NCBI GenBank assembly: GCA_947653875.1
Contig: CANTIK010000010.1
Coordinates: 12,366 to 76,365 of the forward strand
Direction: 5' to 3'
DNA from: an uncultured Clostridia bacterium
Lineage (GTDB): Bacteria > Bacillota > Clostridia > Oscillospirales > Oscillospiraceae
DNA length: 64,000 nt
The position numbers and the translations under genes were made by a program. Of the stretch, positions 14,836-31,644 are shown one piece after another. Positions within the stretch are counted from its first letter, which is position 1. Each line of letters begins with the position of its first letter. A model generated the notes under the pieces. That model did no database searches. It was given only the letters and a program-made list of their open reading frames with translations, and was not told the DNA's origin.

Positions 14836-14865
14836 GAGATAAAAGCATATAAGGAGATGATCGTG

Positions 14866-16192: not shown

Positions 16193-16296
16193 AAAAACAA
16201 TTTCGCGCGCGTGAAAATTGTCAGGATTTTCACGAGGAACCAGGCGGCCCGCTATCCGGCGGACTGCCAACATTTGTGAGAAGGAGGAACCACCTG

Positions 16297-16584: not shown

Positions 16585-16606
16585 TTGAGAAGAGAGGAAA
16601 AGAGTC

Positions 16607-16948: not shown

Positions 16949-16974
16949 GGCCGGGACGCTGGGAGGAATATTAA

Positions 16975-18252: not shown

Positions 18253-18304
18253 TGGTTCTCTGCGCCGCTGCGCGGCGCATGGCAAGCTGTTTCGTTTCGG
18301 AGGC

Positions 18305-18800
18305 CCGGGGCTTACGCAGCCCCGGACTCCGCGCCTACTTTTGCCCCGCGGCAAAAGTAGGCAAAAACGCGCCAGAACCATATGGTTCTGGACTCCTTTT
18401 ACGGGGGAGCAAAGGGCTGTGCGGCGGGGTTTCTGGTTAGGCGAAGCCTCCGAATTTGCAGTTCTTCTTCTGCCACTCTGGTACTTGTAGAACTTCGCCT
18501 GTCGGCCTTTCAAAGAGAGACTGCCTGCAAGGGGCGCTTGTTCTAACGAACCAGCCAGCAACTTGCACCCCGGCGAGCCTGCCCCGCTAAAGCGGTAGGG
18601 GCCATCGTCAACCACGCTGAAATAGAAACTGAAGTTGCACGAAGCGGACGGCAGTATGGTAGACCAAACCAGACTGTGCCTCGGGCGCAAACCAATAACC
18701 CCCGTAATGAAGGAGGATTCTTAAGGAACGTAGTTCCTTAAGCGACCTTTTGCTTCTTTTCGTTCGCACGAAAAGAAGGTCCCCGCCCCTGGTGGGGCGG
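18305..18800. repeat. Structured noncoding repeat, copy 1 (inverted relative to copy 2)
   Basis: Alignable to the reverse complement of 43896-44430. GC hairpins at 18305-18325 and 18783-18800. Paired AT-rich hairpins and conserved islands inside. Confidence 0.7.
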
Positions 18801-18849
18801 AAAAAGCCTCCGCCGCCGTGAAACGGCGGCATAAGAAAGGAGCAATTCA

Positions 18850-20316
18850 ATGGAAACAATGGAATTTCTGTCCAAGAAACCCCTCTTAATTACTGATACC
18901 ATCCTCCGCGATGCCCACCAGTCCCAGGCCGCTACCCGCATGACCATCGAGGACATGCTCCCCGCCTGCGAGATTCTGGACTCCATCGGCTACTACTCCC
19001 TGGAGTGCTGGGGCGGCGCTACCTTCGATGTGTGCATGCGCTTCCTCAACGAGGATCCCTGGGAGCGGCTGCGCACCCTGCGCAAGCATCTGCCCAACAC
19101 CAAGCTGCAGATGCTCTTCCGCGGCCAGAACATCCTGGGCTACAAGCACTATGCCGACGACGTGGTGGACGCCTTCTGCCGCAAGTCCATTGAGAACGGT
19201 ATCGACATCATCCGCATCTTCGACGCCCTCAACGATGTGCGCAACCTGGAGCAGGCCATCAAGTCTACCAAGAAGTATGGCGGCACCGTGGAGGCCACCC
19301 TGTCCTACACCATCTCCCCCATCCACAACGAGGACTACTTTGTGAAGATGGCCAAGGAGCTGGAGCAGATGGGCGCGGACACCCTGTGCATCAAGGACAT
19401 GGCCAACCTGCTGCTGCCCATGGACGCTTACTCTCTGGTCAAGCGGCTCAAGGAGAGCGTCAAGATGCCCATCCACCTGCACACCCACAACACCACCGGT
19501 ACCGGCGACATGGTGTACCTCATGGCCGCCTATGCCGGTGTGGATATCGTGGATACCGCTCTGAGCCCCCTGGCCAACGGTACCGCCCAGCCCTCCACCG
19601 AGTCCCTGGTGGCAACCCTCCAGGGCACCGTCCGGGATACCGGTCTGGATCTGAACAAGATGAGCGACGCCGCCGTCCACTTCCGGAAGGTGGCCCAGCG
19701 CCTGAAGGACACCGGCTCTCTGGACCCCAAGGTGCTGAACGTGGACACCAACACCCTGCTCTATCAGGTGCCCGGCGGTATGCTGTCCAACCTTATCAGC
19801 CAGCTCAAGCAGGCCGGTAAGGAGGATAAGTATTACGACGTGCTGGCGGAGATTCCCCGCGTCCGTGAGGACTACGGCTATCCCCCGCTGGTGACCCCCT
19901 CCTCTCAGATCGTGGGTACCCAGGCCGTGATGAACGTCATCATGGGCGAGCGCTACAAGACCTTCACCAAGGAGTCCCGGGCCGTCCTGAAGGGCGAGTA
20001 CGGCGCTCTGCCCGGCAAGGTCAACGAGAAGGTCCGGGAGAAGGCCGGCATCAAGCCTGACGAGGTCATCACGTGCCGTCCGGCGGATCTGCTGGAGCCT
20101 GAGCTGGAGAAGTACAAGGCCGAGTTCAAGGATCTGGCCAAGAGCGAGGAGGACGTGCTGAGTCTGGCGCTGTTCCCCCAGGTGGCCCCCAAGTTCCTGG
20201 CCTGGAGAGACGGCCCCCACGACGAGCCCAAGGCCGCTCCCGCCCCTGCCGCCGCAAAGCCCGCCGCCGATCCCAATGCGGTGCGCGAGCTGTACGTGGA
20301 CGATAAGAGCATCTGA
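18850..20316 (+). CDS. oadA: Oxaloacetate decarboxylase alpha / carboxyltransferase 5S subunit, without biotinyl domain
   Basis: LRDAHQS and TIM-barrel carboxyltransferase sequence. The C-terminus ends in an Ala/Pro linker with no MKM motif. Confidence 0.9.
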   Translation: METMEFLSKKPLLITDTILRDAHQSQAATRMTIEDMLPACEILDSIGYYSLECWGGATFDVCMRFLNEDPWERLRTLRKHLPNTKLQMLFRGQNILGYKHYADDVVDAFCRKSIENGIDIIRIFDALNDVRNLEQAIKSTKKYGGTVEATLSYTISPIHNEDYFVKMAKELEQMGADTLCIKDMANLLLPMDAYSLVKRLKESVKMPIHLHTHNTTGTGDMVYLMAAYAGVDIVDTALSPLANGTAQPSTESLVATLQGTVRDTGLDLNKMSDAAVHFRKVAQRLKDTGSLDPKVLNVDTNTLLYQVPGGMLSNLISQLKQAGKEDKYYDVLAEIPRVREDYGYPPLVTPSSQIVGTQAVMNVIMGERYKTFTKESRAVLKGEYGALPGKVNEKVREKAGIKPDEVITCRPADLLEPELEKYKAEFKDLAKSEEDVLSLALFPQVAPKFLAWRDGPHDEPKAAPAPAAAKPAADPNAVRELYVDDKSI

Positions 20317-20493
20317 TTTTTTAGAACCTGTATTCATAACCGGAGGATGCTGGATGGACGAGGATTTTTCTCGTCAGACAAGGAGATTTTTCGCAGCAAT
20401 CCTGACGGATTGCAAGGGAAATCGACGCAGTATGGCGGGAAAAAGACCGGCCAGACGGCGTACTACGGTTGTGAATACAGGTTCTTATAGTGT

Positions 20494-20530
20494 AACAGGA
20501 GGACCATCCGTAGGATGGTCCTCCTGTTTT
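20494..20530 (+). terminator. Intrinsic terminator
   Basis: 16 bp perfect stem AACAGGAGGACCATCC/GGATGGTCCTCCTGTT followed by TT. Confidence 0.6.
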
Positions 20531-20661
20531 GGTATATAGCGGTCTTTAGGGAAAGTCCGGGAAAAATATTACGGAGGAGGCGCAACCAACGGGGCGGTTT
20601 GGCAGTCTTTATAGGTGAAAGCCGGTTTTCATGGAATCTGACAAATCTGGAGGTGATCGGA

Positions 20662-21210
20662 TTGACGGATGAGGAGCTGCTGGGGCTCTATTTTGCCCGC
20701 TCAGAGGAGGCCATCCAGGCTACGGGGATGGTGTATGGGCCCTACTGCCGGGCTATCGCTCTGCGGATCCTGGACAGCGAGGAGGATGCTGAGGAGTGTC
20801 TGGCGGACGTGTGGCTGCGGGTCTGGAACGCCGTTCCGCCGGAGAGGCCGGAGCATTTCAAGGGCTGGCTGGGCGTTATTACCCGGAATCAGGCGCTGAC
20901 CCTTCTGCGCTCCAGGGAGCGGAGGCCCCGGCAGGCGGATGAGGCTGCTCTGGAACTGGCCCTGTCCCTGTCCGGCGGGCCGGAGGCCGAGCTGGAGGCC
21001 AGGGAGCTGGGACGGGCCGTCTCCGCTTTCCTTGCGGGCCAGCCGGAGAGGAATCGGAGCGTGTTCCTCCGCCGGTACTGGTATGGCGACACGGTGGAGG
21101 AGGCCGCACGGTGGGCGGGCTGGAGCCTCAGCCGGACGAAATCGGCGCTGTTCCGGATGCGGAAGAAATTGAAGGACTATCTGAAAAAGGAGGGGCTTTA
21201 TCATGAATAA
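20662..21210 (+). CDS. ECF-type sigma-70 family RNA polymerase sigma factor
   Basis: TTG start after GGAGGTG. Region 2 (DVWLRVW) and region 4 HTH (TVEEAARWAGWSLSRTKSALFRMRKKL). Confidence 0.8.
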   Translation: MTDEELLGLYFARSEEAIQATGMVYGPYCRAIALRILDSEEDAEECLADVWLRVWNAVPPERPEHFKGWLGVITRNQALTLLRSRERRPRQADEAALELALSLSGGPEAELEARELGRAVSAFLAGQPERNRSVFLRRYWYGDTVEEAARWAGWSLSRTKSALFRMRKKLKDYLKKEGLYHE

Positions 21211-22147
21211 GGACAAGATCATGGAAGCGATGGATCACATTGACCCCGCGCTGGTCGAGGAGGCGGGACGGGAACTTTCCGTGGCAAAGCGGGGCCGGAG
21301 AGGATGGAGCCGGGCGGCTGTCATCGCCGCGTGCCTGTGCGCCGTGCTGGCGGGGACAGCGGTGGCGGTGGAGCTGTCCGGGGTGCGGATCGTGGATATC
21401 TGGAATAATGAGATGAGGGCCACCGGTCCGGACGGTACTCTGGAAGAGGTTTCCGGCGTTACCATCAGCAGAGATATCCGGTATTTTTCCATTGACGAAC
21501 TCTCTCAGCAAATCATGGAATTGGACCAGGGATTTACGGAGCCCGCCGCCAGAACGTTCTCCTCCTGGGAAAAAATGGAGGACTTTGTGGGGATCCGGGT
21601 TATGGAAAACCCCGTGCTGGATGAAGCCCATTCGGGCGGCACTATGGATGTAGGCCTGCCGGACGGTAAGGGCAGGTTTGTGGCCCACTTCAGTCCAGGC
21701 CCTGGACATGCCGCTGACGGTGTAACGCCGATGGACGGCATCGTGGCTGTCAGGATGTATGGCTGCTATTCTCTTCGCAGCGGCAGCCCGGAACTGCAGC
21801 CCTGGGGTGGGGTCGACATTACTGTTTCTGCGGAACTGGCGATCGACACGGAGAACAATTTCCTTGATGAGATGGAGCTGCTCTATTCGGATGACGCGGC
21901 CGCTGTTCAAGAGACTTATGTGACCCCCAACGGCCTGAACGTTCTGATCTCCAAGACGGAGATCCCGGAACAGGAAGGCGGCAGCGTGCCAAGTCCGGCT
22001 GTTGACTGGTATACTGCGTACTTCACATTGGACGGTATTTTCTTCCGTATCAGCGCCGTAGATTACAAGGACTTCAATGGCGGGAATATCCCTGCCGGGC
22101 TGGTGGAGGAGACCCTGAAAGAGGTTCTGGACGGCTTTGTCTGTTAG
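21203..22147 (+). CDS. Putative anti-sigma factor (single-pass membrane protein)
   Basis: Overlaps the sigma gene stop. Short cytoplasmic N-terminus, a TM helix, then a large extracytoplasmic domain. Confidence 0.55.
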   Translation: MNKDKIMEAMDHIDPALVEEAGRELSVAKRGRRGWSRAAVIAACLCAVLAGTAVAVELSGVRIVDIWNNEMRATGPDGTLEEVSGVTISRDIRYFSIDELSQQIMELDQGFTEPAARTFSSWEKMEDFVGIRVMENPVLDEAHSGGTMDVGLPDGKGRFVAHFSPGPGHAADGVTPMDGIVAVRMYGCYSLRSGSPELQPWGGVDITVSAELAIDTENNFLDEMELLYSDDAAAVQETYVTPNGLNVLISKTEIPEQEGGSVPSPAVDWYTAYFTLDGIFFRISAVDYKDFNGGNIPAGLVEETLKEVLDGFVC

Positions 22148-22290
22148 ACAGAGGCATGAGGCGGGACGGAACAGTTCCGATACAGGGAGAAGGGGGAGCG
22201 GCAAGGATGCCGCTCCCCCGGTTTTTGTCCGCCTTGCAGTCGGCGGCCGCTTGTGGTATGATAGGGGAAAACATGAGGGGAGATACAAAA

Positions 22291-23100
22291 ATGAAGGAAA
22301 AGGTACTGCTGTTAGGCGCAAATGGATTGGTGGGACGGGCGGTGGCCGCCGCCCTGCGGGAGGACTATCAGATCATCCCCGCGGCGGGGCACGGCACGCC
22401 GGAGGGCGGGTACTGCCTGCCAGTGGAGGCGCCGGGACGGCTGGCGGAGGTACTGGAGCTGGAAGCGCCGGAGATCGTGATCTCCTCTATTCGAGGGGAT
22501 TTTGGGCAGCAGATGGCCTTCCATGAGGCGCTGGCGGAAAGGCTGGCGGGGAGTGGGGCGCGGCTGCTGTATGTGTCTACGGCGAACGTGTTTGACGGGG
22601 ATCTGTCGCGGCCCCGGAGGGAAGTGGATGAGCCCACGCCGGAGTCGGAATATGGCGTTTTTAAGCGGGACTGCGAGGCCATGCTGGAGGAAAGGCTGGG
22701 GGAGCGGCTGAGCGTTTTCCGGCTGCCTTCCGTGTGGTCGGAGGGTTGTCCCAGACTCAGGATGCTGGAGAGGCACAGCCGGAGCGGGGAGCCCCATCAC
22801 ACCTGGCGGGGGGATACGGTGAATGTTGCGCTGGCGAGACAGGTGGGGGACTGGGCGCGGTATGTGCTGGGGCATGGACTGCGGGGAATCTTCCACGTGG
22901 GGACCACGGATATGGCGGACTACTTTGCGTTTGAGAAGATGGTCTGCGAGGCGCTGGGCATTCCGGAGCCGGTGTTTGAGATCGAGGAAGTCGGATGGGA
23001 AGCATACCAGGCGGTGCTGCCGGGGAGGGAGGAAATCCCGGAGGAGCTGCAAATGACGGTGGCGCAGGTATTGGAGAGCCTGCGGGACGGCAGACGTTAA
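22291..23100 (+). CDS. SDR-family NAD(P)-dependent oxidoreductase (RmlD-like)
   Basis: Start at MKEKVLLLGANGLVG (Rossmann GxxGxxG). Confidence 0.65.
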   Translation: MKEKVLLLGANGLVGRAVAAALREDYQIIPAAGHGTPEGGYCLPVEAPGRLAEVLELEAPEIVISSIRGDFGQQMAFHEALAERLAGSGARLLYVSTANVFDGDLSRPRREVDEPTPESEYGVFKRDCEAMLEERLGERLSVFRLPSVWSEGCPRLRMLERHSRSGEPHHTWRGDTVNVALARQVGDWARYVLGHGLRGIFHVGTTDMADYFAFEKMVCEALGIPEPVFEIEEVGWEAYQAVLPGREEIPEELQMTVAQVLESLRDGRR

Positions 23101-23111
23101 GAGGAGAATGT

Positions 23112-24167
23112 ATGGAAAGACGGAAAGAGATCAACGGCAGGCTGGTCCGGTGGATCGCGGAGAAGGCGGAGCGGGAATATGCGGAGGATATCAGCCTGGT
23201 ACTGATATATGGGTCCTATGTCAACGGTACGGCCAACAGCAGGTCGGATGTGGACTGCTGCTTTATTCCGAAGACGGAACGCGGATATGAGATGGCGGCG
23301 GGGTTTATCCTGGAGGGTGTGGGGTATGACATATTCCCGATGTCCTGGGAGCGGATAGAACGGATCGCCTGTCTGCGGGAGAACTTGACGCCGCTGGTGG
23401 GAGATGCTGAGATCATTTTCTGCGGCAGTGCGGAGGATATGGCGCGGTTTCAGGGAATGCAGGAGAAATTGCAGTGCTGTCTGGCTGACGGTGCGTACGT
23501 CCGGGAGATTGCAGAGGAGCGGTGCAGGGAGGCAGGGCGGCTCTGCGGGATGCTGGAGCGTGTACGCACGGAGACAGAGGCATGGAAGCTCACGGGAATG
23601 GTCATCATAACGCTGGCAGATGCGGTGGCAGTATTCCACCACCGGTACTTCCATTTTGGGCTGAAACGGCAATTTGAGGATCTGATGAAGATCCAGGAAG
23701 TGCCGGAGGAGATTGTGGAGGGGTACAGGAGCGTGGTGAAGGCGGCCAGTGGAAGCGAGGCGGCGGTTTGCGCCAGGAAGATGCTGGCGGATGTTTGCAG
23801 GCATCTGTGGGTTGCGGTGCCGGTACAGGCGGCGATGGAGGATGCAAGTCCGGGAGGAGGCGCCATCGACGGAATGCAGCTTGCGGGACTCTATGAGGAG
23901 ATCAGTTCGACCTTCAATAAAATTTACGTGTGCTGTGAGACTGGAAACGCGGTCCTGGCGTTTCTTTCGGCAGTGTGTCTGCAGAGGGAATTAGACGAGG
24001 TGGGTGAGTATGATCTGCTGGAGGCGTACGACCATAGAGCGCTGGACAGGCTGGCGGAGGCCGCCCGGAGGATCGAGGCAGAGCTTGTTGGCCTGATCGA
24101 GGAGAACGGCGGGCGTATCCGGCGGTATGGAAGCTTTGAGGAGTTTGCGGCACATAGGGGATGTTAA
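23112..24167 (+). CDS. Nucleotidyltransferase-domain protein (KNTase/ANT-like)
   Basis: YGSYVNGTANSRSDVDCCF minimal-NTase motif followed by a helical C-terminal domain. Confidence 0.65.
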   Translation: MERRKEINGRLVRWIAEKAEREYAEDISLVLIYGSYVNGTANSRSDVDCCFIPKTERGYEMAAGFILEGVGYDIFPMSWERIERIACLRENLTPLVGDAEIIFCGSAEDMARFQGMQEKLQCCLADGAYVREIAEERCREAGRLCGMLERVRTETEAWKLTGMVIITLADAVAVFHHRYFHFGLKRQFEDLMKIQEVPEEIVEGYRSVVKAASGSEAAVCARKMLADVCRHLWVAVPVQAAMEDASPGGGAIDGMQLAGLYEEISSTFNKIYVCCETGNAVLAFLSAVCLQRELDEVGEYDLLEAYDHRALDRLAEAARRIEAELVGLIEENGGRIRRYGSFEEFAAHRGC

Positions 24168-24255
24168 CTATTCGGGCGGAATTGCATGAGCTGCCTGGTG
24201 GATTTGGGGGACGAGGGACGGTATAATGGGGACATCCTAAGAAGAAAGAGGTGCC

Positions 24256-24723
24256 ATGATGAATTTGGGAAACAACCTGTTCCAGGCGCGTAAGAAATGC
24301 GGGCTCTCTCAGGAGGAGGTGGCGGAAAAGCTGGGGGTGAGCCGTCAGACCATATCCAAGTGGGAAACCAGTGAGACGCTGCCCGACATCCGGCAGTCCA
24401 AACGGCTGGCGCTCTTGTACCGCCTGTCGCTGGACGAACTGATCGACTTTGATATGGATATTCAGGAGGTGGAGCAGGCCATTGAGCGGACCAGTGCCGC
24501 TCTGGAGGAAAAAATCGATTGGACAAAGGCTTGGGGCAAAAAATACCCCATCCTGCTGACCTACCGGCAGGATGTGAACGTGGGCAACTACGCCGTACAG
24601 CTGTCCGCAATGATCGCAGATCTAAAAAGCAGCTACGGCTACAGTGAGCTGGACGCCTTCCTGGTATTGAAGGATATTCTGGCCGCCGTCTGGAAGAGCC
24701 GGAAACAGCGGGAAAAGGCGTAA
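24256..24723 (+). CDS. XRE-family HTH transcriptional regulator
   Basis: LSQEEVAEKLGVSRQTISKWE HTH_3 motif. Confidence 0.8.
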   Translation: MMNLGNNLFQARKKCGLSQEEVAEKLGVSRQTISKWETSETLPDIRQSKRLALLYRLSLDELIDFDMDIQEVEQAIERTSAALEEKIDWTKAWGKKYPILLTYRQDVNVGNYAVQLSAMIADLKSSYGYSELDAFLVLKDILAAVWKSRKQREKA

Positions 24724-24769
24724 GGCAGCCGGAGAGGTCCGATAACGGGGGCGCGGGAGCGCCGGAAAT

Positions 24770-24803
24770 AAAAAAGATGCACCGCGCAGCGGTGCATCTT
24801 TTT
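24770..24803 (+). terminator. Intrinsic terminator
   Basis: GATGCACCGC/GCGGTGCATC stem plus TTTTT. Confidence 0.65.
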
Positions 24804-24861
24804 GGGAGCTTGTCCGGCACAACGGACGCCGGCAGTTTGCAAGTTAACTCCTAGTGAGGCC

Positions 24862-25359
24862 TCATTTTGCGATATATCCCGTCCTTGCAAGACGGTCGAT
24901 CGCTGAATCGATCCTCTTTTCCGAATACTTATTCCCCTTGATTTTAATAACTCCCAGTTTTACAGCAGATACCTCTTTTTTTGCCTGCAAATAGACATAA
25001 AGCGACGTGGCCAACAGCTCCAGCTCGCTTGGGGAATCCTTGGCAAATTCATCTATAACCTCATTAACAATTGCATCATTATAAGGCTCACGTTCCAGAA
25101 CGGATGTATCTGCCACAGAAATCAAATGTTCCATAGGGGTATAATGGATTTGCAAAATGCCCTCGTCACTTAATTCTCTAACCGCAAAATCTAAATCCGC
25201 ACTATATGGCCCATAGAAATGAATTCCGTAATCACAGCCAAGGTCTATCTGCTTTGCCTGAATCAGGAACACAATTTTTTGAAGTGTTTTTTTACACGGC
25301 GGAGCGTTTTCCTTCGTTATCCTGTTGACGATATTTACAATTGCATGATTATTGACCAT
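24862..25359 (-). CDS. YwgA-like small protein (possible DUF4065/Panacea-like fold)
   Basis: ATG at 25359 with GGAGG 8 nt upstream. 165 aa. KTLQKIVFLIQ...FYGPYSADLD motif. AT-rich. Immediately downstream of the HD gene, as in the B. subtilis ywfO-ywgA pair. Confidence 0.6.
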   Translation of the reverse strand: MVNNHAIVNIVNRITKENAPPCKKTLQKIVFLIQAKQIDLGCDYGIHFYGPYSADLDFAVRELSDEGILQIHYTPMEHLISVADTSVLEREPYNDAIVNEVIDEFAKDSPSELELLATSLYVYLQAKKEVSAVKLGVIKIKGNKYSEKRIDSAIDRLARTGYIAK

Positions 25360-25376
25360 GAATAATCCTCCGAATT

Positions 25377-26678
25377 TCAATCGCTTTGTAAGCGCTCTAT
25401 TTCTGCCAATACCTCCCCGACGATGTCCTTGCCTGCATAAATGCGATGGATGTTAATGGGCCTTACGATAGATTCTAAAATAATGGACTCTTCCATAATA
25501 TTTGTCACAGCGCGCGTCTGTGGATCAAGAATCATAATACCCTTTCCGCTGTCATCCTGAGGCGCAAGCAGCACCGGCGCAAGCTTATGTGCAGCTTTAT
25601 CAACACTGTCGTAGGCAACTTGGTCTCCATATGCCTCTTGCAGGATTTTATAGATCACTTTGGCATTTGTCTTTTCACCTTTTCCTGCATGAGCTTTTGA
25701 TTCAAATACACATGTCATAATTTCTCGCTGCTTAAAGGCAATGACCTCCGGTGCCTCCGAATCTGCAATCAAGCTGAGAATTCGAGAATCATTCCATTTC
25801 AAATACTCGTGAACTTCCGTTGGATACTTTCCATTTGGGAGGATCGCTTTCAAACTTTTGACCAGAACCTTGTCCAAATATCTGCGTGTCTTATGGAAAT
25901 AAACCTGGATAAACATAAAATATCTCGCAAGCACGAATTCCTCTAAGGCCTGGACACCTCCCCTCTCAATAGCAAGCTGTAGTGTGTGGTCATCTTTATA
26001 GACAGTCAATGTTGAAATAAATCTATTCAGATCATATTTGCCATAAGTAACGCCACAATACAAAGAGTCCCTCAACAAATAATCCATCTTATCGCAGTCA
26101 AGCTCGCCATCCATAAAGCTTTGCAAAAAGAGAAAATCAGGAACGACAAATTTCTCATCTGTAACCTGTTTTCCCTCATAAATCATCCAAACAAGCTCTG
26201 GCGTGATATCATAAGCTTCACCATATTCCCGCTGAAACTTCGAGCCAATCCTGCGAATATGATCTGCGATCTCAGTTTCAGTAATAATAATCCGTGTAAA
26301 ATCTTCATGCTTTTGCCCATTCTCAAACAATTCCTCAGATGCATGAGAAAAAGGAGCATGTCCCAAATCATGGGTCAGTCCAATAATCCGGAGCAATTGC
26401 CGGTACCACGCCGTCTTACGCCGGTTTTCCTCCCTGTTATCTGAAAAGAGGTTCGGCGTTTTTTGCGTCACAGAATCAAATGCGCGGGAGGTCAAGTGCA
26501 TAGTACCGATAGAATGTCCAAACCGTGTATGTTCAGCCCCATGATAAACCAAATATGTGGTAGCTAATTGATGTATATTGCGTAATCGCTGAAAGGGAGC
26601 TGAGTTTATGATTTTTAATTCATCTTCAGAAACATCAATGAATCCATGGACAGGATCTCTAAATTGGTACATAGGCAC
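25377..26678 (-). CDS. HD-domain phosphohydrolase, YwfO/SAMHD1-like putative dNTP triphosphohydrolase
   Basis: 433 aa. EHTRFGHSIGTMHL and THDLGHAPFSH HD motifs. AT-rich relative to the flanks. Confidence 0.8.
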   Translation of the reverse strand: MPMYQFRDPVHGFIDVSEDELKIINSAPFQRLRNIHQLATTYLVYHGAEHTRFGHSIGTMHLTSRAFDSVTQKTPNLFSDNREENRRKTAWYRQLLRIIGLTHDLGHAPFSHASEELFENGQKHEDFTRIIITETEIADHIRRIGSKFQREYGEAYDITPELVWMIYEGKQVTDEKFVVPDFLFLQSFMDGELDCDKMDYLLRDSLYCGVTYGKYDLNRFISTLTVYKDDHTLQLAIERGGVQALEEFVLARYFMFIQVYFHKTRRYLDKVLVKSLKAILPNGKYPTEVHEYLKWNDSRILSLIADSEAPEVIAFKQREIMTCVFESKAHAGKGEKTNAKVIYKILQEAYGDQVAYDSVDKAAHKLAPVLLAPQDDSGKGIMILDPQTRAVTNIMEESIILESIVRPINIHRIYAGKDIVGEVLAEIERLQSD

Positions 26679-26973
26679 TCTCCTTTTGTAAAGGGAGACA
26701 TAGTTTTTTTATTTTAACAGAAATGTATACAGATTTCAATCCCTTGATTGTGGATATCCTTTCAGGCCTCCCGGTCCGAAGGGCTTTTTTATCCAATTCA
26801 TGACATCAGTACGCCTTCTCCACGCCGCCGGAGCAACCCCCACCGATTTGGTGAACTCCTTGTTATCATCGGGAAACCATATATAGCAATCATCAGAATT
26901 CCTGGCAAAAGCTCGGGGATACAAAGGGCGCATGGCCGCGTTGTCGTCCTTGGCGGGCGTCAGCCCGCCTGCG

Positions 26974-27041
26974 TCCTCCGCCTTGCCCTGCGCCCTTTGT
27001 CCTCCCCTCCTTTTTTGTCATGAATTCTGAAGCTTGCTATA
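26974..27041 (+). repeat. 68 bp repeat, copy A (inverted partner at 40003-40069)
   Basis: About 64 of 68 positions identical to the reverse complement of 40003-40069, with one 1 nt indel. Confidence 0.8.
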
Positions 27042-27043
27042 TA
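27015..27043 (+). promoter_or_regulatory. Sigma-A-like promoter inside repeat copy A
   Basis: TTGTCA, 17 nt spacer, TATATA, pointing toward the XRE gene at 27308. Confidence 0.45.
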
Positions 27044-27202
27044 TAGTCGAAGCAGTTGAAAATCGGTAAAGTTCGGCGGCCAAAACAGGGCGTGGACTTC
27101 GTTGTTGTCCTTGGCGGGCGTCAGTCCGCCTGCGTCCTCCGCCTCGCCACACCCGGTTTTCCCTCGCCTCCTTTTTACCGATTCTCAACTGCTTCGACTA
27201 TA
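27042..27202. repeat. 29 bp inverted repeat pair flanking a 103 bp spacer
   Basis: 27042-27070 versus the reverse complement of 27174-27202, one mismatch. The spacer holds a second copy (27100-27144) of the 45 nt unit at 26939-26983. Confidence 0.75.
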
Positions 27203-27307
27203 CTATAGGAAAAACAGAATATGCAACCGCTGGTTGCGGAAGTTTCAAGCGCAGTTGATAGCGTGCCGCGGGAAATGGCGGTATGATTTTGGCAAGGAGG
27301 TAAGAGA

Positions 27308-27763
27308 ATGTTGTCTGAAAAAATCTATTCACTCAGGCGGAAGAATGGACTTTCACAGGAGCAGCTTGCGGAAAAAATCGGTGTTTCACGGCAAGCGGTA
27401 TCAAAATGGGAGGGAGGGCTGTCCACCCCGGAATTGGACAAGCTCAGGGCGCTGAGCGAATGCTTTCAAATTACAATGGACGAGCTGACCGGAAACCGGA
27501 CGATCCATGGTTCCGGCGATGCAGACAGGGAGGAACAGGCCCCGGCTCCCGGCAAAGGAGGAGAGAGCAGACTGGGCGTTTGCCTCTGTGTGACAGGCGC
27601 CGTCTGTCTGATCCTGTTTGGCGTCCTGACCGTTATGCACCCATCGACTGTTGACCGGATCAGCGGCTCATCGGCGGTCACCCTGAACGGAACGGGAATG
27701 CTCATTCTCCTGTTTGTGCTGCTGATGGTTTCAGGAATGCGGATGATGTTTAAGAAAAAATAA
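27308..27763 (+). CDS. XRE-family HTH protein with C-terminal transmembrane region
   Basis: LSQEQLAEKIGVSRQAVSKWE HTH, then two hydrophobic helices. AAGGAGG RBS. Confidence 0.8.
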   Translation: MLSEKIYSLRRKNGLSQEQLAEKIGVSRQAVSKWEGGLSTPELDKLRALSECFQITMDELTGNRTIHGSGDADREEQAPAPGKGGESRLGVCLCVTGAVCLILFGVLTVMHPSTVDRISGSSAVTLNGTGMLILLFVLLMVSGMRMMFKKK

Positions 27764-27788
27764 GAACCTGTATTCAGGAGGTAACACG

Positions 27789-28025
27789 ATGAAGAAATAC
27801 AAGCGGCTGACCTGTCTTTTTGCCGTTCTTGCGGCGCTGCTTTCGCATGTCATGTGCGCCGCGGTTGCATACAGCTACTGCGCGCTTCAATGGGGCGGAC
27901 AATACGCCGGATGCAGCGCCCCGGCCGGCACAGCGTTTCTGCTGTGCATTCCATACGGGATTGGCGTGCTGATATGCGCCGCCTCGGCCTGGCTTTTCAA
28001 TGTAAAGTCTCAGCAGTCCGTATAA
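27789..28025 (+). CDS. Small membrane protein
   Basis: 78 aa, GGAGG RBS, about 3 hydrophobic segments. Confidence 0.5.
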   Translation: MKKYKRLTCLFAVLAALLSHVMCAAVAYSYCALQWGGQYAGCSAPAGTAFLLCIPYGIGVLICAASAWLFNVKSQQSV

Positions 28026-28152
28026 GCGGCGACGCTCTTGAAGGCGTTCTTTCCAGCGGAATTTCTTATCTTTCGCGCCGGCCTGCCGATATGTTAGTAT
28101 AAGCAGCCATCAAAACCGCCGCGGCGGTTTGATAAGAAGGGAGGCCCCAGGA

Positions 28153-30855
28153 ATGAACGAGCTGGCCATTGGCAGAAGAAAGGACGCCGCCATTTTCCGG
28201 CAGCAGGGAACGGTCAAAGCGGAGAAGAAGGCCGCCGCCACCTCCGCGCAAAAAGCGGAGAAGCCTGTAAGCAGCGCCGCCTCGGACTCCGTGCGGCAGC
28301 GGATGACCGGGAGCGTCCGCGCGGAGGCCCTCTCCCGTGAGAGCCGCCGGACGCTTCAGGCGGGCGAAGCCGTGCTGTCTGAGATACAGGAGCGTCTGGG
28401 CCGTCTGGCGGAGCTGGCGGAAAAGGCCGCCGGCGGCGGCGAGGAGGATCGGGCCGCCCTCCAGAAGGAGCTGACGCGCCTGCTGGGGGAGATCGACCGG
28501 ATGGCCGGGAGCGCCGCCGGGGATAAATCCCTGTTCCTGAGCGGAGACCCGGACGCCGCCGTGGGCGCGGACGCCCTCCCCGCGTGGCTTCTCAACGGTA
28601 TTGCCCAAGGAGCGGTCTCCCCGGAGCGCCTGCTGTCCGCCCTGGGCCTGGACCAGACCGCCAGCGGAGCGGACATTCTGGCCGCCATCATGGGCAGCTC
28701 GCCCGAGGGAAACGCCGCCGTGGGCTATCTGGCCGCCCTGTACCTGGGCGCGGTGATCTCCGGCGGAGGCCAGACTGAAAATCCGGACCCCTCTTTGGCC
28801 CTGGACGGCCTCCGGCAGCTGCTGGCGGCGGTGGAGAGCGGCGTCCCCCTGGACCGGGCGGTGGAGCTGCTGACGGGCGGCGAGTTTACCAGCCTCTCCG
28901 ATTTCCAGAACCAATTCACCCAGGGCACGATCCCCGGGATGGAGGACTTCCTCACCAACCTGCTGCTGTCCGGCGGTGATTCCCCCCTGGGCGAGGGCCA
29001 GTCCCTGCTGGCCCTCCTGGCGGCCACCTTCGACGGGATGGGGCCGGATCTGCTCATGGACCTGCTGGCCGCCCTGCCGGTCCCCGGCGCCGCCGCCGCT
29101 CCTGATCCCGCCTCCTCCGGGCCGGACGCCGCCCTGGCGGAGAGCGCGCCCGGTCTTCCGGATTCTTCCGGGGCATCTCCCGTCTCTCTCCTGACCTTCG
29201 GGAACGTGCAGGTGATGGGCCGGGACCTCTCCGGCGTATCCATGGACGCCAACGGCGTACTGACCATCGGCGGCACAGCGGACGTAACCGTTCTGGGAAC
29301 CGGCCAGGGCGGGCAGGCTCTCCGCCTCACCGGCTCCGGCGCGGTGATCCTGCGCAATGCAGATGTCTCCACCCTGACTGCCGCCGCCCCCGAGACCCGC
29401 GTCGTCAGCGCGGGCGGAAACACGATAGGTACGGTGCAGCTGGGCGAAAACACAACCCTCACCCTGGACGGCGGCCTGCTGCGCCTTGGCTCCGTCCAGG
29501 GCGGAGCGCACAGCCTCCTCCGCCTCACCGGCGGCGCGGCGGTCCTGCTGGAGAAACCGGCCCAGTCCGGCGAAGCCGCCGCCCTGACGGTTCCCGTGGT
29601 CCTGGACGGCCCCGCTTCCCTGATGGCCCGGGCCTCGGTCGTCCGCGATACCGGCGGAAAAGCCCTCCAGCCCTTCGACGTGGTGTGGAAGGCGCTGCTT
29701 CCGGGCTTCCGGGCCATCACCTCTCTGGAGATCGACGGCCAGCGCTCCCGCCTGTCCCTCACCCGGGACCAGGCCATGCGCCTCTGGCTGGCGAAGGGCG
29801 ACCTCTCCAACCAGGGCTATCCCGCGCACAGCCTGGTCATCCGGGGCCGGGACCGGATGGGCCGCCTCCGGACCCGGTACGCCTATCTGCGCTGGGACCA
29901 GCGCGCCGGCGGCTTCGAGGAGACGGAGCTGTACCCCAACCCCTTCACCGTCACCGGCGGCGAGCCCGGGGAGGACTGGGTGTATGAGGAGGGCTCCCAT
30001 ACCCTGCACATCCTGTCCGCCCAGGTGTCCGCCATCTCCGGCGGCTCCGGCGTGGACGCGGACCAGTCCCCCTTCAGCGGCAGGATTGTCCTGGCGGACA
30101 GCATCGGCGCCATCGAGCTGGCCCTGCGGGGCGTAGCCTGCCGCGTGACCTCCGGCCGGGCCTTCTATCTGGGGTGCGGGAATGACGTGACCCTCCTCCC
30201 GGAGGGCGGCACCGCCAACTTCTTTGAGAGCGGCGCGGACTGCGCGGGCATTTCCGTAGGGGAGGGCACCTCCCTGCGGGTGGACTGCACCCGCACCAAC
30301 GGCCTGCCTGCCGGGACAATCACTGCCTCCGGCGGTACCAGCATCGGCGGCGACAGAGGCCGGATTCCCGCCGGACGCATTCTGATCCGGGGCGGCGCGG
30401 TCACCGGCGGCGAGCGGCGGGGCTCCACAGAGTCCGTGACCATCGTAGGCGGCATGGCCCCTGACAATAAGGGCGGGGCCAAGGTCCTGGCCCGCATGGG
30501 CGTCATTCTCCAGGCAGGGGAGGATATCCTGATTCTGCCCCGAATCCGCCTGTCCGCCAAATCCCTTCGGCTGGACGGCCTGTGCGTGTCTACCCGCGAG
30601 CAGGCCCATGCCGCCGTGGTGTCCATCGAGGTAGGCCGCCGCTGGATTGCCCGCCTGCAGGATGACTGCGGCGTTCTCTCCGGCCAGGTGAAGCAGAGCG
30701 GATTCTTTCCCGTCCGGCATCCCGCTGTCCCTGTGCGGGACGCATCGGAGGCCGGGATACTGCTGGAGAATATCGGCCCCATATCTTTTTCCCGGGCCAT
30801 GCGTCTCCGTTCCGGCCGTAAGAACGCAGAGGATGTAGAGCAGCTGCTGCGGTGA
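28153..30855 (+). CDS. Giant divergent flagellin-like protein with central beta-helix-like insert
   Basis: N-terminal segment AGEAVLSEIQERLGRLAELAEKAAGGGEEDRAALQKELTRLLGEIDRMAG aligns to the Flagellin_N consensus. The C-terminus (VRDASEAGILLENIG...VEQLLR) resembles Flagellin_C. The middle is Gly/Thr-rich and repeat-like. Confidence 0.65.
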   Translation: MNELAIGRRKDAAIFRQQGTVKAEKKAAATSAQKAEKPVSSAASDSVRQRMTGSVRAEALSRESRRTLQAGEAVLSEIQERLGRLAELAEKAAGGGEEDRAALQKELTRLLGEIDRMAGSAAGDKSLFLSGDPDAAVGADALPAWLLNGIAQGAVSPERLLSALGLDQTASGADILAAIMGSSPEGNAAVGYLAALYLGAVISGGGQTENPDPSLALDGLRQLLAAVESGVPLDRAVELLTGGEFTSLSDFQNQFTQGTIPGMEDFLTNLLLSGGDSPLGEGQSLLALLAATFDGMGPDLLMDLLAALPVPGAAAAPDPASSGPDAALAESAPGLPDSSGASPVSLLTFGNVQVMGRDLSGVSMDANGVLTIGGTADVTVLGTGQGGQALRLTGSGAVILRNADVSTLTAAAPETRVVSAGGNTIGTVQLGENTTLTLDGGLLRLGSVQGGAHSLLRLTGGAAVLLEKPAQSGEAAALTVPVVLDGPASLMARASVVRDTGGKALQPFDVVWKALLPGFRAITSLEIDGQRSRLSLTRDQAMRLWLAKGDLSNQGYPAHSLVIRGRDRMGRLRTRYAYLRWDQRAGGFEETELYPNPFTVTGGEPGEDWVYEEGSHTLHILSAQVSAISGGSGVDADQSPFSGRIVLADSIGAIELALRGVACRVTSGRAFYLGCGNDVTLLPEGGTANFFESGADCAGISVGEGTSLRVDCTRTNGLPAGTITASGGTSIGGDRGRIPAGRILIRGGAVTGGERRGSTESVTIVGGMAPDNKGGAKVLARMGVILQAGEDILILPRIRLSAKSLRLDGLCVSTREQAHAAVVSIEVGRRWIARLQDDCGVLSGQVKQSGFFPVRHPAVPVRDASEAGILLENIGPISFSRAMRLRSGRKNAEDVEQLLR

Positions 30856-30877
30856 CCCCTTCGACTATATGGCAAAA

Positions 30878-30905
30878 GGCCCTCCAGCATTGCTGGAGGG
30901 CCTCT
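30878..30905 (+). terminator. Terminator-like hairpin
   Basis: GGCCCTCCAGC/GCTGGAGGGCC stem. Weak T tract. Confidence 0.4.
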
Positions 30906-31215
30906 GTGCGTCAAAAAAGCGGCGCAGCCACTTTTTTGAGTGAAAGGCGGTCATTCGGCTGATGCCGGCGGCCCAAAGGCCGCCCCGCTTCACTCTGCGC
31001 TTCGGCTGTGCGCCTATGGCGCACAATTCGATGCTTGCTCCGCGCAAAGTGTTTTTCCCCGTGGGCCGGCCAAAGGCCGGCTTAGCACTAAAAGCGCCGC
31101 TGTGCGGCGCTTCACGACGTACACGCCGAGAGCAAAGCGATTGGATTTTTTTGCCGCCTGCGTGCGGCAAACTCTCATGGGGCCGTCAAAGGCGGCTTTA
31201 GGCCTGTCCGGCCGG

Positions 31216-31644
31216 TCACTCCCGTTTTTCCTTCCTTTTCGCCACGCTGTTGGTATCCAGAGAATCCCGGAACACCACGAACCGGTCGTAGAGGAACTCC
31301 AGTACAAAATTGGCAATCATATTGATGGCCGTCACCAGATACTCGTTCCAGCGCAGCCCCTCCGCCAGATAATTCCCCAGCAGTGTGGACAGCGGCGTGA
31401 ACACGCAGTAGAATCCGAACACCAGCGCCATGGCTTTGGGCACATTGCTGGCGGATTGGAAGGTGTACCGCCGGTTCAGCGTAAAGTTCCACAGCACCGA
31501 CAGCGCCAGCGCAATGAGATAGCAGGGCCAGTAGCTCCAAGCCGTCAGCTCATTGAGCAGGGAGAACGCCCCGATCTCAATGATCCCCGCAGAGAGCGAA
31601 AACAGGAGAAATTTCAGAGAGCGCAGAATTTCCTTGCGATCCAT
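31216..31644 (-). CDS. GtrA-family membrane protein
   Basis: 142 aa, 4 TM, WNFTLNRRYTF motif. Confidence 0.8.
   Translation of the reverse strand: MDRKEILRSLKFLLFSLSAGIIEIGAFSLLNELTAWSYWPCYLIALALSVLWNFTLNRRYTFQSASNVPKAMALVFGFYCVFTPLSTLLGNYLAEGLRWNEYLVTAINMIANFVLEFLYDRFVVFRDSLDTNSVAKRKEKRE

What the first reader, a model, noticed from the sequence alone, without database searches (positions are those of the whole stretch)
27308..30855. 900 aa flagellin-like protein in a three-gene unit with an XRE-TM regulator and a small membrane protein, with no flagellar genes nearby
The N-terminal segment of the 28153-30855 product aligns convincingly to the second helix region of Flagellin_N (taEgaL..v...LqRmrELavqaaNg..s..Draa.q.E..qL..EidRia). 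Its last about 90 residues follow Flagellin_C, down to a terminal ...EQLLR.

Three features are atypical:
- The RLSSGlRIn/DDAAG motif is missing.
- The extreme N-terminus is atypical.
- About 650 residues of Gly/Thr/Ala-rich repeat, resembling a parallel beta-helix, are inserted between the two ends.

The gene follows a membrane-tethered XRE regulator and a 78 aa membrane protein. It is expressed downstream of the repeat-borne promoter and the inverton-like leader. This could be a giant or enzymatic flagellin, a surface adhesin that co-opted the flagellin export ends, or a phase-variable antigen.
Basis: partly seen in the sequence, partly recalled or inferred. Interest (0 to 1): 0.6.

Follow-up and report, generated by a model that had tools for sequence, protein, structure and literature searches.

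The report
Degenerate giant flagellin, protease lost
This 900-residue gene is a real but eroded relative of flagellin, descended from giant protease-carrying flagellins of gut Clostridia; it has its own flagellar-type promoter and occurs only in flagellated species, while the regulator and small membrane genes beside it are unrelated neighbours.

Summary
The ORF at 28153-30855 (900 aa) belongs to the flagellin superfamily. A profile of 50 relatives matches solved flagellins at both ends (E = 9e-24). The LSSG/DDAAG segment is missing.

- The XRE-TM and 78-aa genes are a separate two-gene module. They lie elsewhere in four other species and are never next to a homologue.
- The "inverton-like leader" is two copies of a roughly 160-nt repeat found in many near-identical copies across the genome.
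- The gene carries its own sigma-28-type promoter (TTATCTTT-N11-GCCGATAT, 28066-28092). It is conserved upstream of at least 68 of 79 homologues, and a similar motif precedes this genome's flagellin, FliD and CheA genes.
- The genome encodes FlhA, sigma-28, FliS, FliD, FlgK/FlgL and two canonical flagellins.
- Every sampled genome carrying the family has FlhA, and no FlhA-negative genome carries it.

The insert is not one repeat. It is a helical remnant of the flagellinolysin protease domain (no HExxH), a disordered linker and a 470-aa beta-rich domain. That beta domain is found only in flagellins, including canonical 1,500-1,700-aa giants with an intact protease.

Best reading: a late flagellar-regulon gene, probably exported by the flagellar apparatus, acting as a non-catalytic accessory flagellin. 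Export and location are inferred. I class it as a new variant of a known kind.

The parts
28066..28073 (+). -35-like element TTATCTTT of a sigma-28 (FliA/SigD)-type promoter
   Evidence: This is the only match in the window to TTATNTTT-N10-12-GCCGATA, with 0 expected from 100 shuffles. The element is conserved upstream of at least 68 of 79 homologues. A similar motif precedes this genome's CheA, flagellin and FliD genes.
28085..28092 (+). -10 element GCCGATAT, the hallmark sigma-28 -10 box
   Evidence: It lies 11 nt after the -35-like element and 60 nt before the ATG. The synteny break with relative G036 is at 28051, so the promoter travels with the gene.
28137..28144 (+). Ribosome-binding site AAGGGAGG
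   Evidence: Read directly from the sequence. It sits 8 nt before the ATG at 28153. Homologues start at the equivalent MxEL codon.
28153..30855 (+). CDS of the 900-aa flagellin-superfamily protein, including the stop codon
   Evidence: dN/dS against orthologues is 0.24-0.29.
28153..28275 (+). Residues 1-41: degenerate ND0. The MxELxIRRxR start is conserved, followed by a K/A/S/Q-rich stretch that replaces LSSGxRIN...DDAAG
   Evidence: AlphaFold2 pLDDT is 25-29 with no secondary structure. The charged fraction is 0.29 against 0.16 and proline is 0.043 against 0 in five canonical flagellins. The region aligns position for position with flagellin ND0 in the profile search.
28276..28545 (+). Residues 42-131: ND1 helical hairpin
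   Evidence: Pfam Flagellin_N covers residues 43-131. Helices 42-93 and 100-121 have pLDDT around 80-87. They superpose on solved flagellin D1 over 65-100 residues at rmsd 1.4-4 A with probability about 1.
28567..29070 (+). Residues 139-306: helical domain, a remnant of the C-terminal subdomain of the flagellinolysin (M9-like gluzincin) peptidase domain, without its catalytic motif
   Evidence: 13 of 14 isolated domain fragments hit NCBIfam NF033876, best E = 4.3e-8, profile positions 149-278 of 384. hhalign against a real flagellinolysin starts just after its HExxH. The domain is collinear with giant flagellin P0182, which keeps HEMIH. No HExxH occurs in 50 members and the third-ligand Glu position varies.
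29071..29178 (+). Residues 307-342: Pro/Ala/Ser-rich linker, variable in length
   Evidence: pLDDT is below 50. The alignment is gappy and variable here.
29179..30588 (+). Residues 343-812: beta-rich outer domain, possibly a solenoid or beta-helix, found only in flagellins
   Evidence: It has no Pfam or PDB sequence match. Model pLDDT is 70.6 and Foldseek gives no significant match, best E = 0.17. phmmer against 1.84 billion representatives finds only 82 hits; every one of the 14 long hits I scanned with Pfam that had any match matched Flagellin_N or Flagellin_C (three had none). dN/dS is 0.19-0.26.
30589..30852 (+). Residues 813-900: CD1 helix (815-847) and a degenerate CD0 ending ...EDVEQLLR
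   Evidence: The family profile aligns with the last ~118 residues of solved flagellins, i-Evalue 1.3e-8. Helix 815-847 has pLDDT 75-80, while residues 853-900 have pLDDT 36-46. CD1 has the lowest dN/dS, 0.04-0.11. The last 40 residues are less hydrophobic (0.38 against 0.49) and more charged (0.27 against 0.12) than in canonical flagellins.
30907..30926 (+). Terminator-like hairpin followed by a T-run
27308..28025 (+). NOT part of the unit: the XRE-family HTH protein with C-terminal TM segments (27308-27763) and the 78-aa membrane ORF (27789-28025), an independent two-gene module
   Evidence: Pfam HTH_3. The pair is conserved together at 74-78% nt identity in G034, G027, G017 and G013. There it lies on contigs other than the one carrying the flagellin-like gene, and G027 has no such gene. 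The pair is absent upstream of every homologue in L006-L025.
26876..27202 (.).
   Evidence: Inverted-repeat pairs I1 and I2 and direct repeat D2. BLAST of 26870-27210 against the genome gives 133 HSPs, many at 95-100% identity on many contigs.

Best explanation
The gene encodes a D0-degenerate, catalytically dead descendant of the giant flagellinolysin-type flagellins of gut Clostridia.

**Shown**
- It keeps the flagellin D1 core (ND1 hairpin and CD1 helix) and a recognisable C-terminal end.
- Its middle is collinear with the outer domains of canonical 1,500-1,700-aa flagellins. Those carry an intact HExxH peptidase followed by the same beta-rich domain.
- In this lineage the N-terminal half of the peptidase, including HExxH and the third zinc ligand, is gone.
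- The ND0/spoke motif is replaced by a disordered basic stretch.
- The whole protein is under purifying selection.
- It has its own conserved sigma-28-type promoter.
- Among the genomes sampled it occurs only where the flagellar export gate is present.

**Inferred**
- It is transcribed with the late flagellar genes and exported through the flagellar type III apparatus. I saw no hydrophobic leader in the N-terminal sequence, and no Pfam anchoring domain was found.
- Outside the cell it acts as an accessory flagellin that displays a non-enzymatic beta-rich binding module. It could be a minor or terminal filament subunit or a released protein.
- With an eroded D0 it is unlikely to build a filament by itself. 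The two canonical flagellins do that.

The upstream XRE-TM and 78-aa genes and the repeat cluster are unrelated neighbours. A strain-specific rearrangement and a ~9.7-kb stretch that includes a low-GC block placed them there.
For: **Flagellin-superfamily membership**
- The family profile matches solved flagellins at E = 9e-24, in an N-terminal and a C-terminal stretch that runs to the last residue.
- 48 of 50 members hit Flagellin_N.
- ND1 superposes on solved D1.

**Descent from giant flagellinolysins**
- 13 of 14 helical-domain fragments hit NF033876, best E = 4e-8.
- hhalign places the match just after HExxH.
- BLASTP of residues 133-751 against P0182 residues 374-995 gives E = 2e-47. P0182 has HEMIH and FPDWFVEG.
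- The beta domain has 82 hits in 1.84 billion representatives. Those at 30-37% identity have full Flagellin_N, Flagellin_C or both (four of the six also weakly hit Beta_helix_3). Of those scanned at 38% or more, none has Flagellin_C and four of seven have a partial Flagellin_N.

**Loss of catalysis**
- 0 of 50 members have HExxH.

**Promoter**
- TTATCTTT-N11-GCCGATAT is unique in the window, with 0 expected by chance.
- It is conserved in at least 68 of 79 loci, a median of 51 nt from the start codon.
- A similar motif precedes this genome's CheA, flagellin (C24) and FliD genes.
- A sigma-28 gene is present next to flhA.

**Co-occurrence with the export gate**
- Genus level: 19 of 26 FlhA-positive genomes carry the family and 0 of 11 FlhA-negative ones do (p = 3.7e-5).
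- Family level: 6 of 35 against 0 of 116 (p = 1.1e-4).

**Purifying selection**
- dN/dS is 0.24-0.29.

**D0 erosion**
- pLDDT is below 30 for residues 1-41 and about 40 for residues 853-900.
- Composition differs from canonical flagellins.

**Context**
-.
Against: - There is no direct evidence of transcription, export or location.
- The co-occurrence statistics ignore phylogenetic relatedness. Seven FlhA-positive genomes of the genus lack the gene, although several of those are incomplete.
- The -35-like element (TTATNTTT) differs from the textbook sigma-28 -35 (TAAA). Its assignment rests on the -10 box and on a few flagellar genes in this genome, and the second canonical flagellin (C48) lacks an obvious copy.
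- No terminator was detected between the 78-aa gene and the promoter, so read-through from upstream is possible in this strain.
- Low AlphaFold2 confidence for D0 is weak evidence of disorder, and I could not run a canonical flagellin as a control.
- D1 is well kept and its ancestors are filament subunits, so ordinary co-polymerisation is not excluded.
- The function of the beta domain is unknown.
Confidence: 0.65

Rival explanations
1. It is an ordinary structural flagellin. It co-polymerises along the whole filament with the two canonical flagellins, as flagellinolysin does in Clostridium haemolyticum, and simply decorates the filament with a beta-rich outer domain.
For: - D1 is conserved and under the strongest constraint.
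- Its closest relatives with the same outer domains are canonical flagellins.
- It has a sigma-28-type promoter and strict co-occurrence with FlhA.
- Flagellinolysin is a filament component alongside a structural flagellin (PMC5595980).
Against: - The most conserved flagellin segment (LSSGxRIN...DDAAG, the end of ND0 and the spoke) is missing. Its replacement contains proline, is highly charged and is predicted disordered.
- CD0 core positions have become polar or charged, and no member reaches Pfam Flagellin_C.
- From established knowledge of filament structure, D0 forms the inner tube and is needed for polymerisation.
Confidence: 0.25
2. The three genes form a regulatory unit. The membrane-tethered XRE regulator and the small membrane protein control a phase-variable surface antigen through the upstream invertible repeat.
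For: - All three genes are on the same strand with short gaps.
- No terminator was detected between the 78-aa gene and the large ORF.
- Inverted repeats lie upstream.
Against: - The pair is absent upstream of every homologue in L006-L025.
- In four related species the pair lies on other contigs, and it occurs in a genome without the large gene.
- Synteny breaks at 28051 and base composition changes there, from 0.49 to 0.69 GC.
- The repeats are a many-copy interspersed element.
- The large gene has its own conserved promoter.
Confidence: 0.04
3. It is a cytoplasmic regulator rather than an exported protein. As a flagellin mimic, it would titrate FliS or FliW through its D1 and C-terminal helices and so tune flagellin translation or export.
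For: - The parts that are retained (D1 and the C-terminal end) are those that flagellin chaperones and partners bind in Bacillus subtilis (flagellin-FliS complexes 5MAW and 6GOW appear among the matches).
- FliS is encoded in this genome.
Against: - A 470-aa beta-rich domain under purifying selection, otherwise found only as a flagellin outer domain, is hard to explain for a cytoplasmic decoy.
- No such role is known for any large flagellin paralogue.
Confidence: 0.06

Closest known systems
Flagellinolysin / proteolytic flagellins (FliA(H) of Clostridium haemolyticum; NCBIfam NF033876; Eckhard et al. 2017, PMC5595980)
   Same: - It has flagellin ends with a domain inserted in the hypervariable region.
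- Residues 139-306 are homologous to the part of the peptidase domain that begins at the 'LPxWFxEG' helix and runs to its C-terminal end.
   Different: - The HExxH helix and everything before it in the peptidase domain are absent, and the third zinc ligand is not conserved.
- It scores 25 bits against a 205-bit cut-off.
- It carries an extra 470-aa beta-rich domain.
- Its D0 is degenerate.
Canonical giant protease-plus-beta-helix flagellins of rodent-gut Clostridia (e.g. P0182, 1586 aa, MCI8647163.1; no description of this architecture turned up in the papers I searched or read)
   Same: - The helical subdomain and beta-rich domain are collinear, with 29% identity over 661 columns and E = 2e-47.
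- The habitat is similar, since most records are mouse-gut MAGs.
   Different: - Those proteins have full Flagellin_N and Flagellin_C, an intact HEMIH motif, and several hundred more residues of GAGIG beta-helix repeats.
- This family is 890-1120 aa, has degenerate ends and has no catalytic motif.
Giant flagellins (over 1000 aa) of marine gamma-proteobacteria (Thomson et al. 2018, PMC6248924) and flagellins with pectate-lyase-like outer domains (cluster #35 in Fields et al. 2024, PMC11532411)
   Same: It has a very large outer region between the flagellin ends, and that region may be a beta-solenoid.
   Different: - Those have canonical D0/D1 and form thick filaments.
- Here D0 is eroded, the window's protein is 900 aa, and the beta-helix fold could not be confirmed.
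FlaC of Campylobacter jejuni (PMC4863622), a secreted flagellin-like protein that is not part of the filament
   Same: It is a flagellin paralogue with flagellin-like N and C ends in a flagellated bacterium. FlaC is a possible model for export without polymerisation.
   Different: - FlaC is small and lacks a central domain, whereas this protein has a 680-aa insert and a degenerate ND0.
- There is no sequence relationship beyond the flagellin ends.
- Secretion was not tested here.
Cell-surface flagellin homologues p5/p6 of Sphingomonas sp. A1 (PDB 2ZBI, 3K8V, 3K8W)
   Same: They are the top Foldseek and profile matches over D1, and they are flagellin homologues used as surface binding proteins.
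   Different: The lineage and outer domain are different. The resemblance is limited to the shared D1 fold.

Membership tests
Flagellin superfamily (D1 core) | N-terminal helical region homologous to Flagellin_N (PF00669) | tested here: met
   - This protein scores 24.2 bits (E = 3.9e-5), just under the 26.6-bit cut-off, and covers profile positions 46-136 only.
- 48 of 50 relatives hit the model, best 4e-11.
- The family profile against solved flagellins gives E = 9e-24.
- ND1 superposes at rmsd 1.4-4 A.
Flagellin superfamily (D1 core) | C-terminal helical region homologous to Flagellin_C (PF00700) | tested here: inconclusive
   - No member reaches Pfam Flagellin_C at E <= 0.01.
- The family profile does align its last ~118 positions with the C-termini of solved flagellins, i-Evalue 1.3e-8, to the last residue.
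Filament-forming flagellin | Intact ND0 helix and spoke with the LSSGxRIN...DDAAG motif | tested here: not met
   The motif is absent in the window's protein and across the family alignment. Residues 1-41 have pLDDT 25-29 and no helix. Proline and charge are enriched.
Filament-forming flagellin | Incorporation into the flagellar filament | not testable with these tools
   This needs proteomics, immunogold EM or cryo-EM of filaments from a cultured carrier.
Late flagellar (sigma-28) regulon | Sigma-28-type promoter upstream, and a sigma-28 gene in the genome | tested here: met
   - GCCGATAT lies 11 nt after TTATCTTT at 28066-28092, with 0 expected by chance.
- The motif is conserved in at least 68 of 79 loci.
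- A similar motif precedes the CheA, flagellin and FliD genes.
- FliA/SigD scores 233 bits against a 189.6-bit cut-off.
- Actual sigma-28 dependence was not tested.
Flagellar type III export substrate | Occurs only with the export apparatus; export depends on FlhA/FliS | tested here: inconclusive
   Co-occurrence is met: 19 of 26 against 0 of 11 at genus level, and 6 of 35 against 0 of 116 at family level. Export itself was not testable.
Flagellinolysin (NF033876) | HExxH zinc-binding motif plus a downstream Glu ligand | tested here: not met
   0 of 50 members have HExxH, and the residue at the Glu position varies (Q/N/K/R/S...). The alignment with a real flagellinolysin begins after its HExxH.
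Flagellinolysin (NF033876) | Score above the curated cut-off (205 bits) | tested here: not met
   25.1 bits. The best isolated domain fragment gives E = 4.3e-8.
Right-handed parallel beta-helix (pectate-lyase-like) domain | Significant sequence or fold match to beta-helix families | tested here: inconclusive
   - There is no Pfam or PDB sequence match.
- The best Foldseek E-value is 0.17. Secretion-domain and autotransporter beta-helices and tapirins appear in the list only at probability 0.01-0.09.
- Longer relatives and the canonical giants give weak Beta_helix_3 hits in the adjacent GAGIG repeats.
Conserved operon with XRE-TM regulator and 78-aa membrane protein | Gene neighbourhood conserved across homologues | tested here: not met
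   The pair is absent upstream of every homologue in L006-L025. It is found elsewhere in four species.
Invertible-promoter (inverton) phase variation | Locus-specific inverted repeats flanking the promoter of the regulated gene | tested here: not met
   The repeats belong to an interspersed element with many copies. They lie 860 nt or more upstream of the gene's own promoter and are separated from it by two other genes. Reads to test inversion were not available.

The most novel reading that the evidence does not exclude
A whole clade of gut Oscillospiraceae, with loci in 125 representative species genomes, has converted a giant enzymatic flagellin into something that no longer polymerises or cleaves. 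It would be a sigma-28-driven cargo of the flagellar export apparatus. Once exported, it would either be released as a soluble beta-rich binding or immune-decoy protein, or cap growing filaments as a chain terminator because its D0 is defective. To my knowledge that would be the first flagellin-derived secreted effector described in Firmicutes, and an example of a flagellin pseudo-enzyme.
Probability: 0.3. Interest if true: 0.65.

Novelty: new variant of a known kind. Interest (0 to 1): 0.5.

Why it matters
Flagellins of gut Clostridia are major targets of innate (TLR5) and adaptive immunity. Their outer domains are now seen as a place where new functions arise, such as proteases and lectins.

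This family shows what can follow such an innovation:
- the catalytic half of the inserted protease was discarded;
- the filament-core ends decayed;
- the flagellar promoter, the D1 core and the beta-rich module stayed under selection.

The family is common in mouse-gut Oscillospiraceae and cultured carriers exist, so its fate can be tested directly: filament subunit, filament terminator or secreted protein.

The practical lesson for annotation is that these genes are usually labelled "hypothetical" or "FlgL-like". The neighbouring regulator genes should not be read as their operon partners.

Tried and rejected
- **Three-gene operon.** Rejected by context comparison.
- **Inverton or phase variation.** The repeats are a many-copy element.
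- **Active metalloprotease.** Rejected because no HExxH is present.
- **PDB sequence relatives of the helical and beta domains.** None found.
- **Fold search with the whole model and with the beta domain alone.** It returned only flagellin D1 matches and then non-significant beta-helix-like matches, so the fold of the beta domain stays open.
- **Structured 5'UTR.** The hairpin at about 28108-28133 is not better than shuffled sequence, z = -1.28.
- **Sigma-70 promoter scan of 27200-31300.** It found nothing.
- **Conserved partner gene.** ECF sigma/anti-sigma pairs lie near two homologues but not in this window. I did not pursue this.
- **Literature.** The searches I ran on flagellinolysin, giant flagellins, and Oscillospiraceae or Lawsonibacter flagellins turned up no description of this family.

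Full report
**1. What is at the coordinates**

- The + strand carries three consecutive ORFs:
  - 27308-27763, 151 aa;
  - 27789-28025, 78 aa;
  - a large ORF whose ATG at 28153 follows the ribosome-binding site AAGGGAGG.
- The large ORF ends at 30855 and encodes 900 aa.
- The first ORF has an XRE-type HTH (HTH_3, E = 1e-16) and a hydrophobic C-terminal half. The second has no family match.
- None of the neighbouring ORFs scanned between 22995 and 35056 is flagellar. They include an XRE regulator, an HD-domain protein, GtrA, an FGGY kinase, TetR and an aldolase.

**2. Is the large protein flagellin-like?**

Yes.

- On its own it falls just short of Pfam Flagellin_N: 24.2 bits against a 26.6-bit cut-off, residues 43-131 against profile positions 46-136. 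It has no Flagellin_C hit.
- It belongs to a large family. A word-indexed search found 463 relatives of 890-1040 aa, most already flagged PF00669.
- A profile of 50 of them matches solved flagellins at E = 9e-24 in two stretches:
  - profile 7-129 against flagellin 11-136;
  - profile 820-937 against flagellin 153-270, ending at the last residue.
- 48 of the 50 hit Flagellin_N individually and none hits Flagellin_C.
- The AlphaFold2 model has a mean pLDDT of 70.5. It shows:
  - the ND1 hairpin, helices 42-93 and 100-121;
  - a long CD1 helix, 815-847;
  - residues 1-41 with no structure, pLDDT 25-29;
  - residues 853-900 with pLDDT around 40.
- Foldseek finds only flagellins. Whole-model E-values are weak, but ND1 superposes over 65-100 residues at rmsd 1.4-4 A.

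D1 is present, the C-terminal end parallels flagellin, and the LSSG...DDAAG segment is gone.

Compared with five canonical flagellins, two of them from this genome:

| Region | Measure | This family | Canonical |
|---|---|---|---|
| First 40 residues | charged fraction | 0.29 | 0.16 |
| First 40 residues | proline fraction | 0.043 | 0 |
| Last 40 residues | hydrophobic fraction | 0.38 | 0.49 |
| Last 40 residues | charged fraction | 0.27 | 0.12 |

**3. The insert**

The insert is not one repeat. It has three parts.

*Helical domain, residues ~139-306.*
- The domain gives a weak hit to NCBIfam flagellinolysin.
- Cut out alone, 13 of 14 family fragments hit that model, best E = 4.3e-8, profile positions 149-278 of 384.
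- I fetched a real flagellinolysin from a Clostridia genome. hhalign places the match from its 'GALPTWFQEGAAEF' helix onward, which is just after HExxH.
- No family member has HExxH, and the position of the third zinc ligand varies.

*Linker, residues 307-342.*
- It is disordered and of variable length.

*Beta-rich domain, residues 343-812.*
- It has no Pfam or PDB sequence relative.
- Modelled alone (pLDDT 70.6), it has no significant fold match. Secretion-domain and autotransporter beta-helices and tapirins appear only at probabilities of 0.09 or lower.
- An exhaustive phmmer search of 1.84 billion representatives finds only 82 proteins with this domain. They fall into two groups:
  - Seven hits at 38% identity or more (890-1120 aa) were scanned. 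None has Flagellin_C; four have a partial Flagellin_N and three have no Pfam hit.
  - Hits at 30-37% identity: the four full-length 1,500-1,700-aa proteins scanned have full Flagellin_N and Flagellin_C, and two shorter records (1,050 and 1,094 aa) have Flagellin_C only. Four of the six also give weak Beta_helix_3 hits.
- One of the second group, P0182, is 1586 aa and comes from a mouse-gut Firmicutes MAG. It contains 'TIAHEMIHAF' and 'FPDWFVEGMAQ'. It is collinear with residues 133-751 of this protein at E = 2e-47.

The family is therefore a derived offshoot of giant protease-plus-beta-domain flagellins. It lost the catalytic half of the protease, and its D0 decayed.

**4. Is it a live gene?**

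- Against two orthologues about 80% identical, dN/dS is 0.24-0.29 overall.
- By region, dN/dS is:
  - 0.04-0.11 in CD1;
  - 0.19-0.26 in the beta domain;
  - 0.36-0.50 in the protease remnant.

**5. Context and regulation**

*The neighbours are not operon partners.*
- The XRE-TM and 78-aa genes are upstream of none of the homologues in L006-L025, and differently composed neighbourhoods flank two relatives.
- In a relative about 87% identical at the DNA level, collinearity runs from window 28051 rightwards. The left neighbour there corresponds to window 18343-6882 in inverted orientation.
- Window 18344-28050 is absent at that site. The 24-28 kb part of that stretch has 0.49 GC against 0.60-0.69 around it.
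- The XRE-TM/78-aa pair is itself conserved as a pair (74-78% nt) in four other species. There it lies on contigs other than the one carrying the flagellin-like gene, and one of those genomes has no such gene.
- The "inverton-like leader" (26876-27202) is two tandem copies of a ~160-nt palindromic element with many near-identical copies across the genome.

*The gene has its own promoter.*
- Just right of the synteny break lies TTATCTTT-N11-GCCGATAT (28066-28092). It is the only such site in the window, with 0 expected by chance.
- The -10 box is the classical sigma-28 box, a point of established knowledge.
- The motif is conserved upstream of 12 of 14 and then at least 68 of 79 homologous loci, a median of 51 nt from the start codon.
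- In this genome a similar motif precedes CheA, one canonical flagellin and a 948-aa FliD-like gene. It also precedes a few other ORFs.

*The genome is flagellated.*
- It encodes sigma-28 next to flhA, FliS after fliD, FlgK/FlgL and two canonical flagellins of 585 and 652 aa.

**6. Distribution**

- The family has 125 loci among species-representative genomes. Almost all are Oscillospiraceae, mostly from the mouse gut, and they include cultured Flintibacter muris, Neglectibacter sp. X58 and several unnamed isolates.
- Within the genus, 19 of 26 FlhA-positive genomes carry it and 0 of 11 FlhA-negative ones do (p = 3.7e-5).
- Across the family, 6 of 35 FlhA-positive and 0 of 116 FlhA-negative genomes carry it (p = 1.1e-4), in 4 of 101 genera.
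- These tests ignore shared ancestry, but the direction is consistent.

**7. Mechanism**

*Shown.*
- It is a member of the flagellin superfamily.
- It descends from giant flagellinolysin-type flagellins.
- The zinc site is lost.
- D0 is degenerate.
- It is under purifying selection.
- It has its own conserved flagellar-type promoter.
- It is restricted to flagellated genomes.

*Inferred.*
- It is expressed as a late flagellar gene and exported through the flagellar type III apparatus. I saw no hydrophobic leader in the N-terminal sequence, and no Pfam anchoring domain was found.
- It works outside the cell as an accessory flagellin that displays a non-enzymatic beta-rich module.
- Because the filament core needs D0, I think it cannot build filaments alone.
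- The sequence cannot tell whether it co-polymerises sparsely, sits at the tip or is released.

*Rivals.*
- Ordinary structural co-flagellin: 0.25.
- Cytoplasmic chaperone decoy: 0.06.

**8. Comparison and novelty**

- Protease outer domains and pectate-lyase-like outer domains are known separately in flagellins (PMC5595980, PMC11532411). Giant flagellins are known too (PMC6248924).
I reached the same kind of protein independently through the beta-domain search.
- None of the papers I searched or read describes the degenerate clade.
- I class it as a new variant of a known kind. It is moderately interesting as a case of domain decay in a flagellin, and as a widespread, uncharacterised candidate cargo of the flagellar export apparatus in gut commensals.

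**9. Limits**

- The fold and function of the beta domain remain open.

Noticed in passing
window 26876-27202 (also C10 copies at window-external positions and many other contigs): There are two tandem copies of a ~160-nt palindromic interspersed repeat. Each has 29-35-nt inverted arms about 102 nt apart. BLAST of 26870-27210 gives 133 HSPs in the genome, many at 95-100% identity. It looks like a MITE-type element.
   Followed up: partly
window 6882-28050: Relative to a species about 87% identical (G036), window 6882-18343 is inverted. Window 18344-28050 is absent at that site; within it, the 24-28 kb stretch has only 0.49 GC and holds an XRE gene, a 172-aa ORF and a 433-aa HD-domain protein. 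The right breakpoint, 28051, is 15 nt upstream of the sigma-28-type -35 element.
   Followed up: partly
window 27308-28025: The XRE-TM regulator and the 78-aa membrane ORF form a two-gene module of their own. The pair is conserved at 74-78% nt identity in four other species of the genus. Its function is unknown.
   Followed up: partly
window 30893-31217: About 325 nt of non-coding sequence between the flagellin-like gene and the GtrA gene has no counterpart in the G036 relative, where the two genes are about 20 nt apart in the alignment. A terminator-like hairpin lies at 30907-30926.
   Followed up: no
own genome C2, minus strand, promoter-like site at 45323: A 183-aa ORF beginning MELRITGRPK... 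follows a sigma-28-like motif (CTTAACTTT-N12-GCCGAAA). Its first residues resemble the conserved MxELxIRRxR start of the flagellin-like family. This could be a shared N-terminal feature of late flagellar export substrates, or chance.
   Followed up: no
own genome C29, plus strand, promoter-like site at 25252: A 188-aa ORF that looks like an ECF-type sigma factor by its sequence (it gives only a weak partial match, E = 9.7e-4, to the FliA/WhiG sigma model) is preceded by a perfect TTATTTTT-N12-GCCGATAT motif. ECF sigma/anti-sigma pairs also lie within a few kb of the flagellin-like gene in two relatives (L006, L009).
   Followed up: no
own genome C58 (promoter-like site 17550, minus strand) and C24/C48: The filament cap gene is unusually long at 948 aa. 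The two canonical flagellins are 585 and 652 aa and have ~200-nt leaders that share conserved segments. The C24 leader starts at a CCTTATTTTTT-N11-GCCGATTA site, but no equivalent site was seen for C48.
   Followed up: partly
own genome C16:60736-60924: A further Flagellin_N match (profile 76-137) runs into the end of contig C16, so the genome may hold a third canonical flagellin that is cut by the assembly.
   Followed up: no
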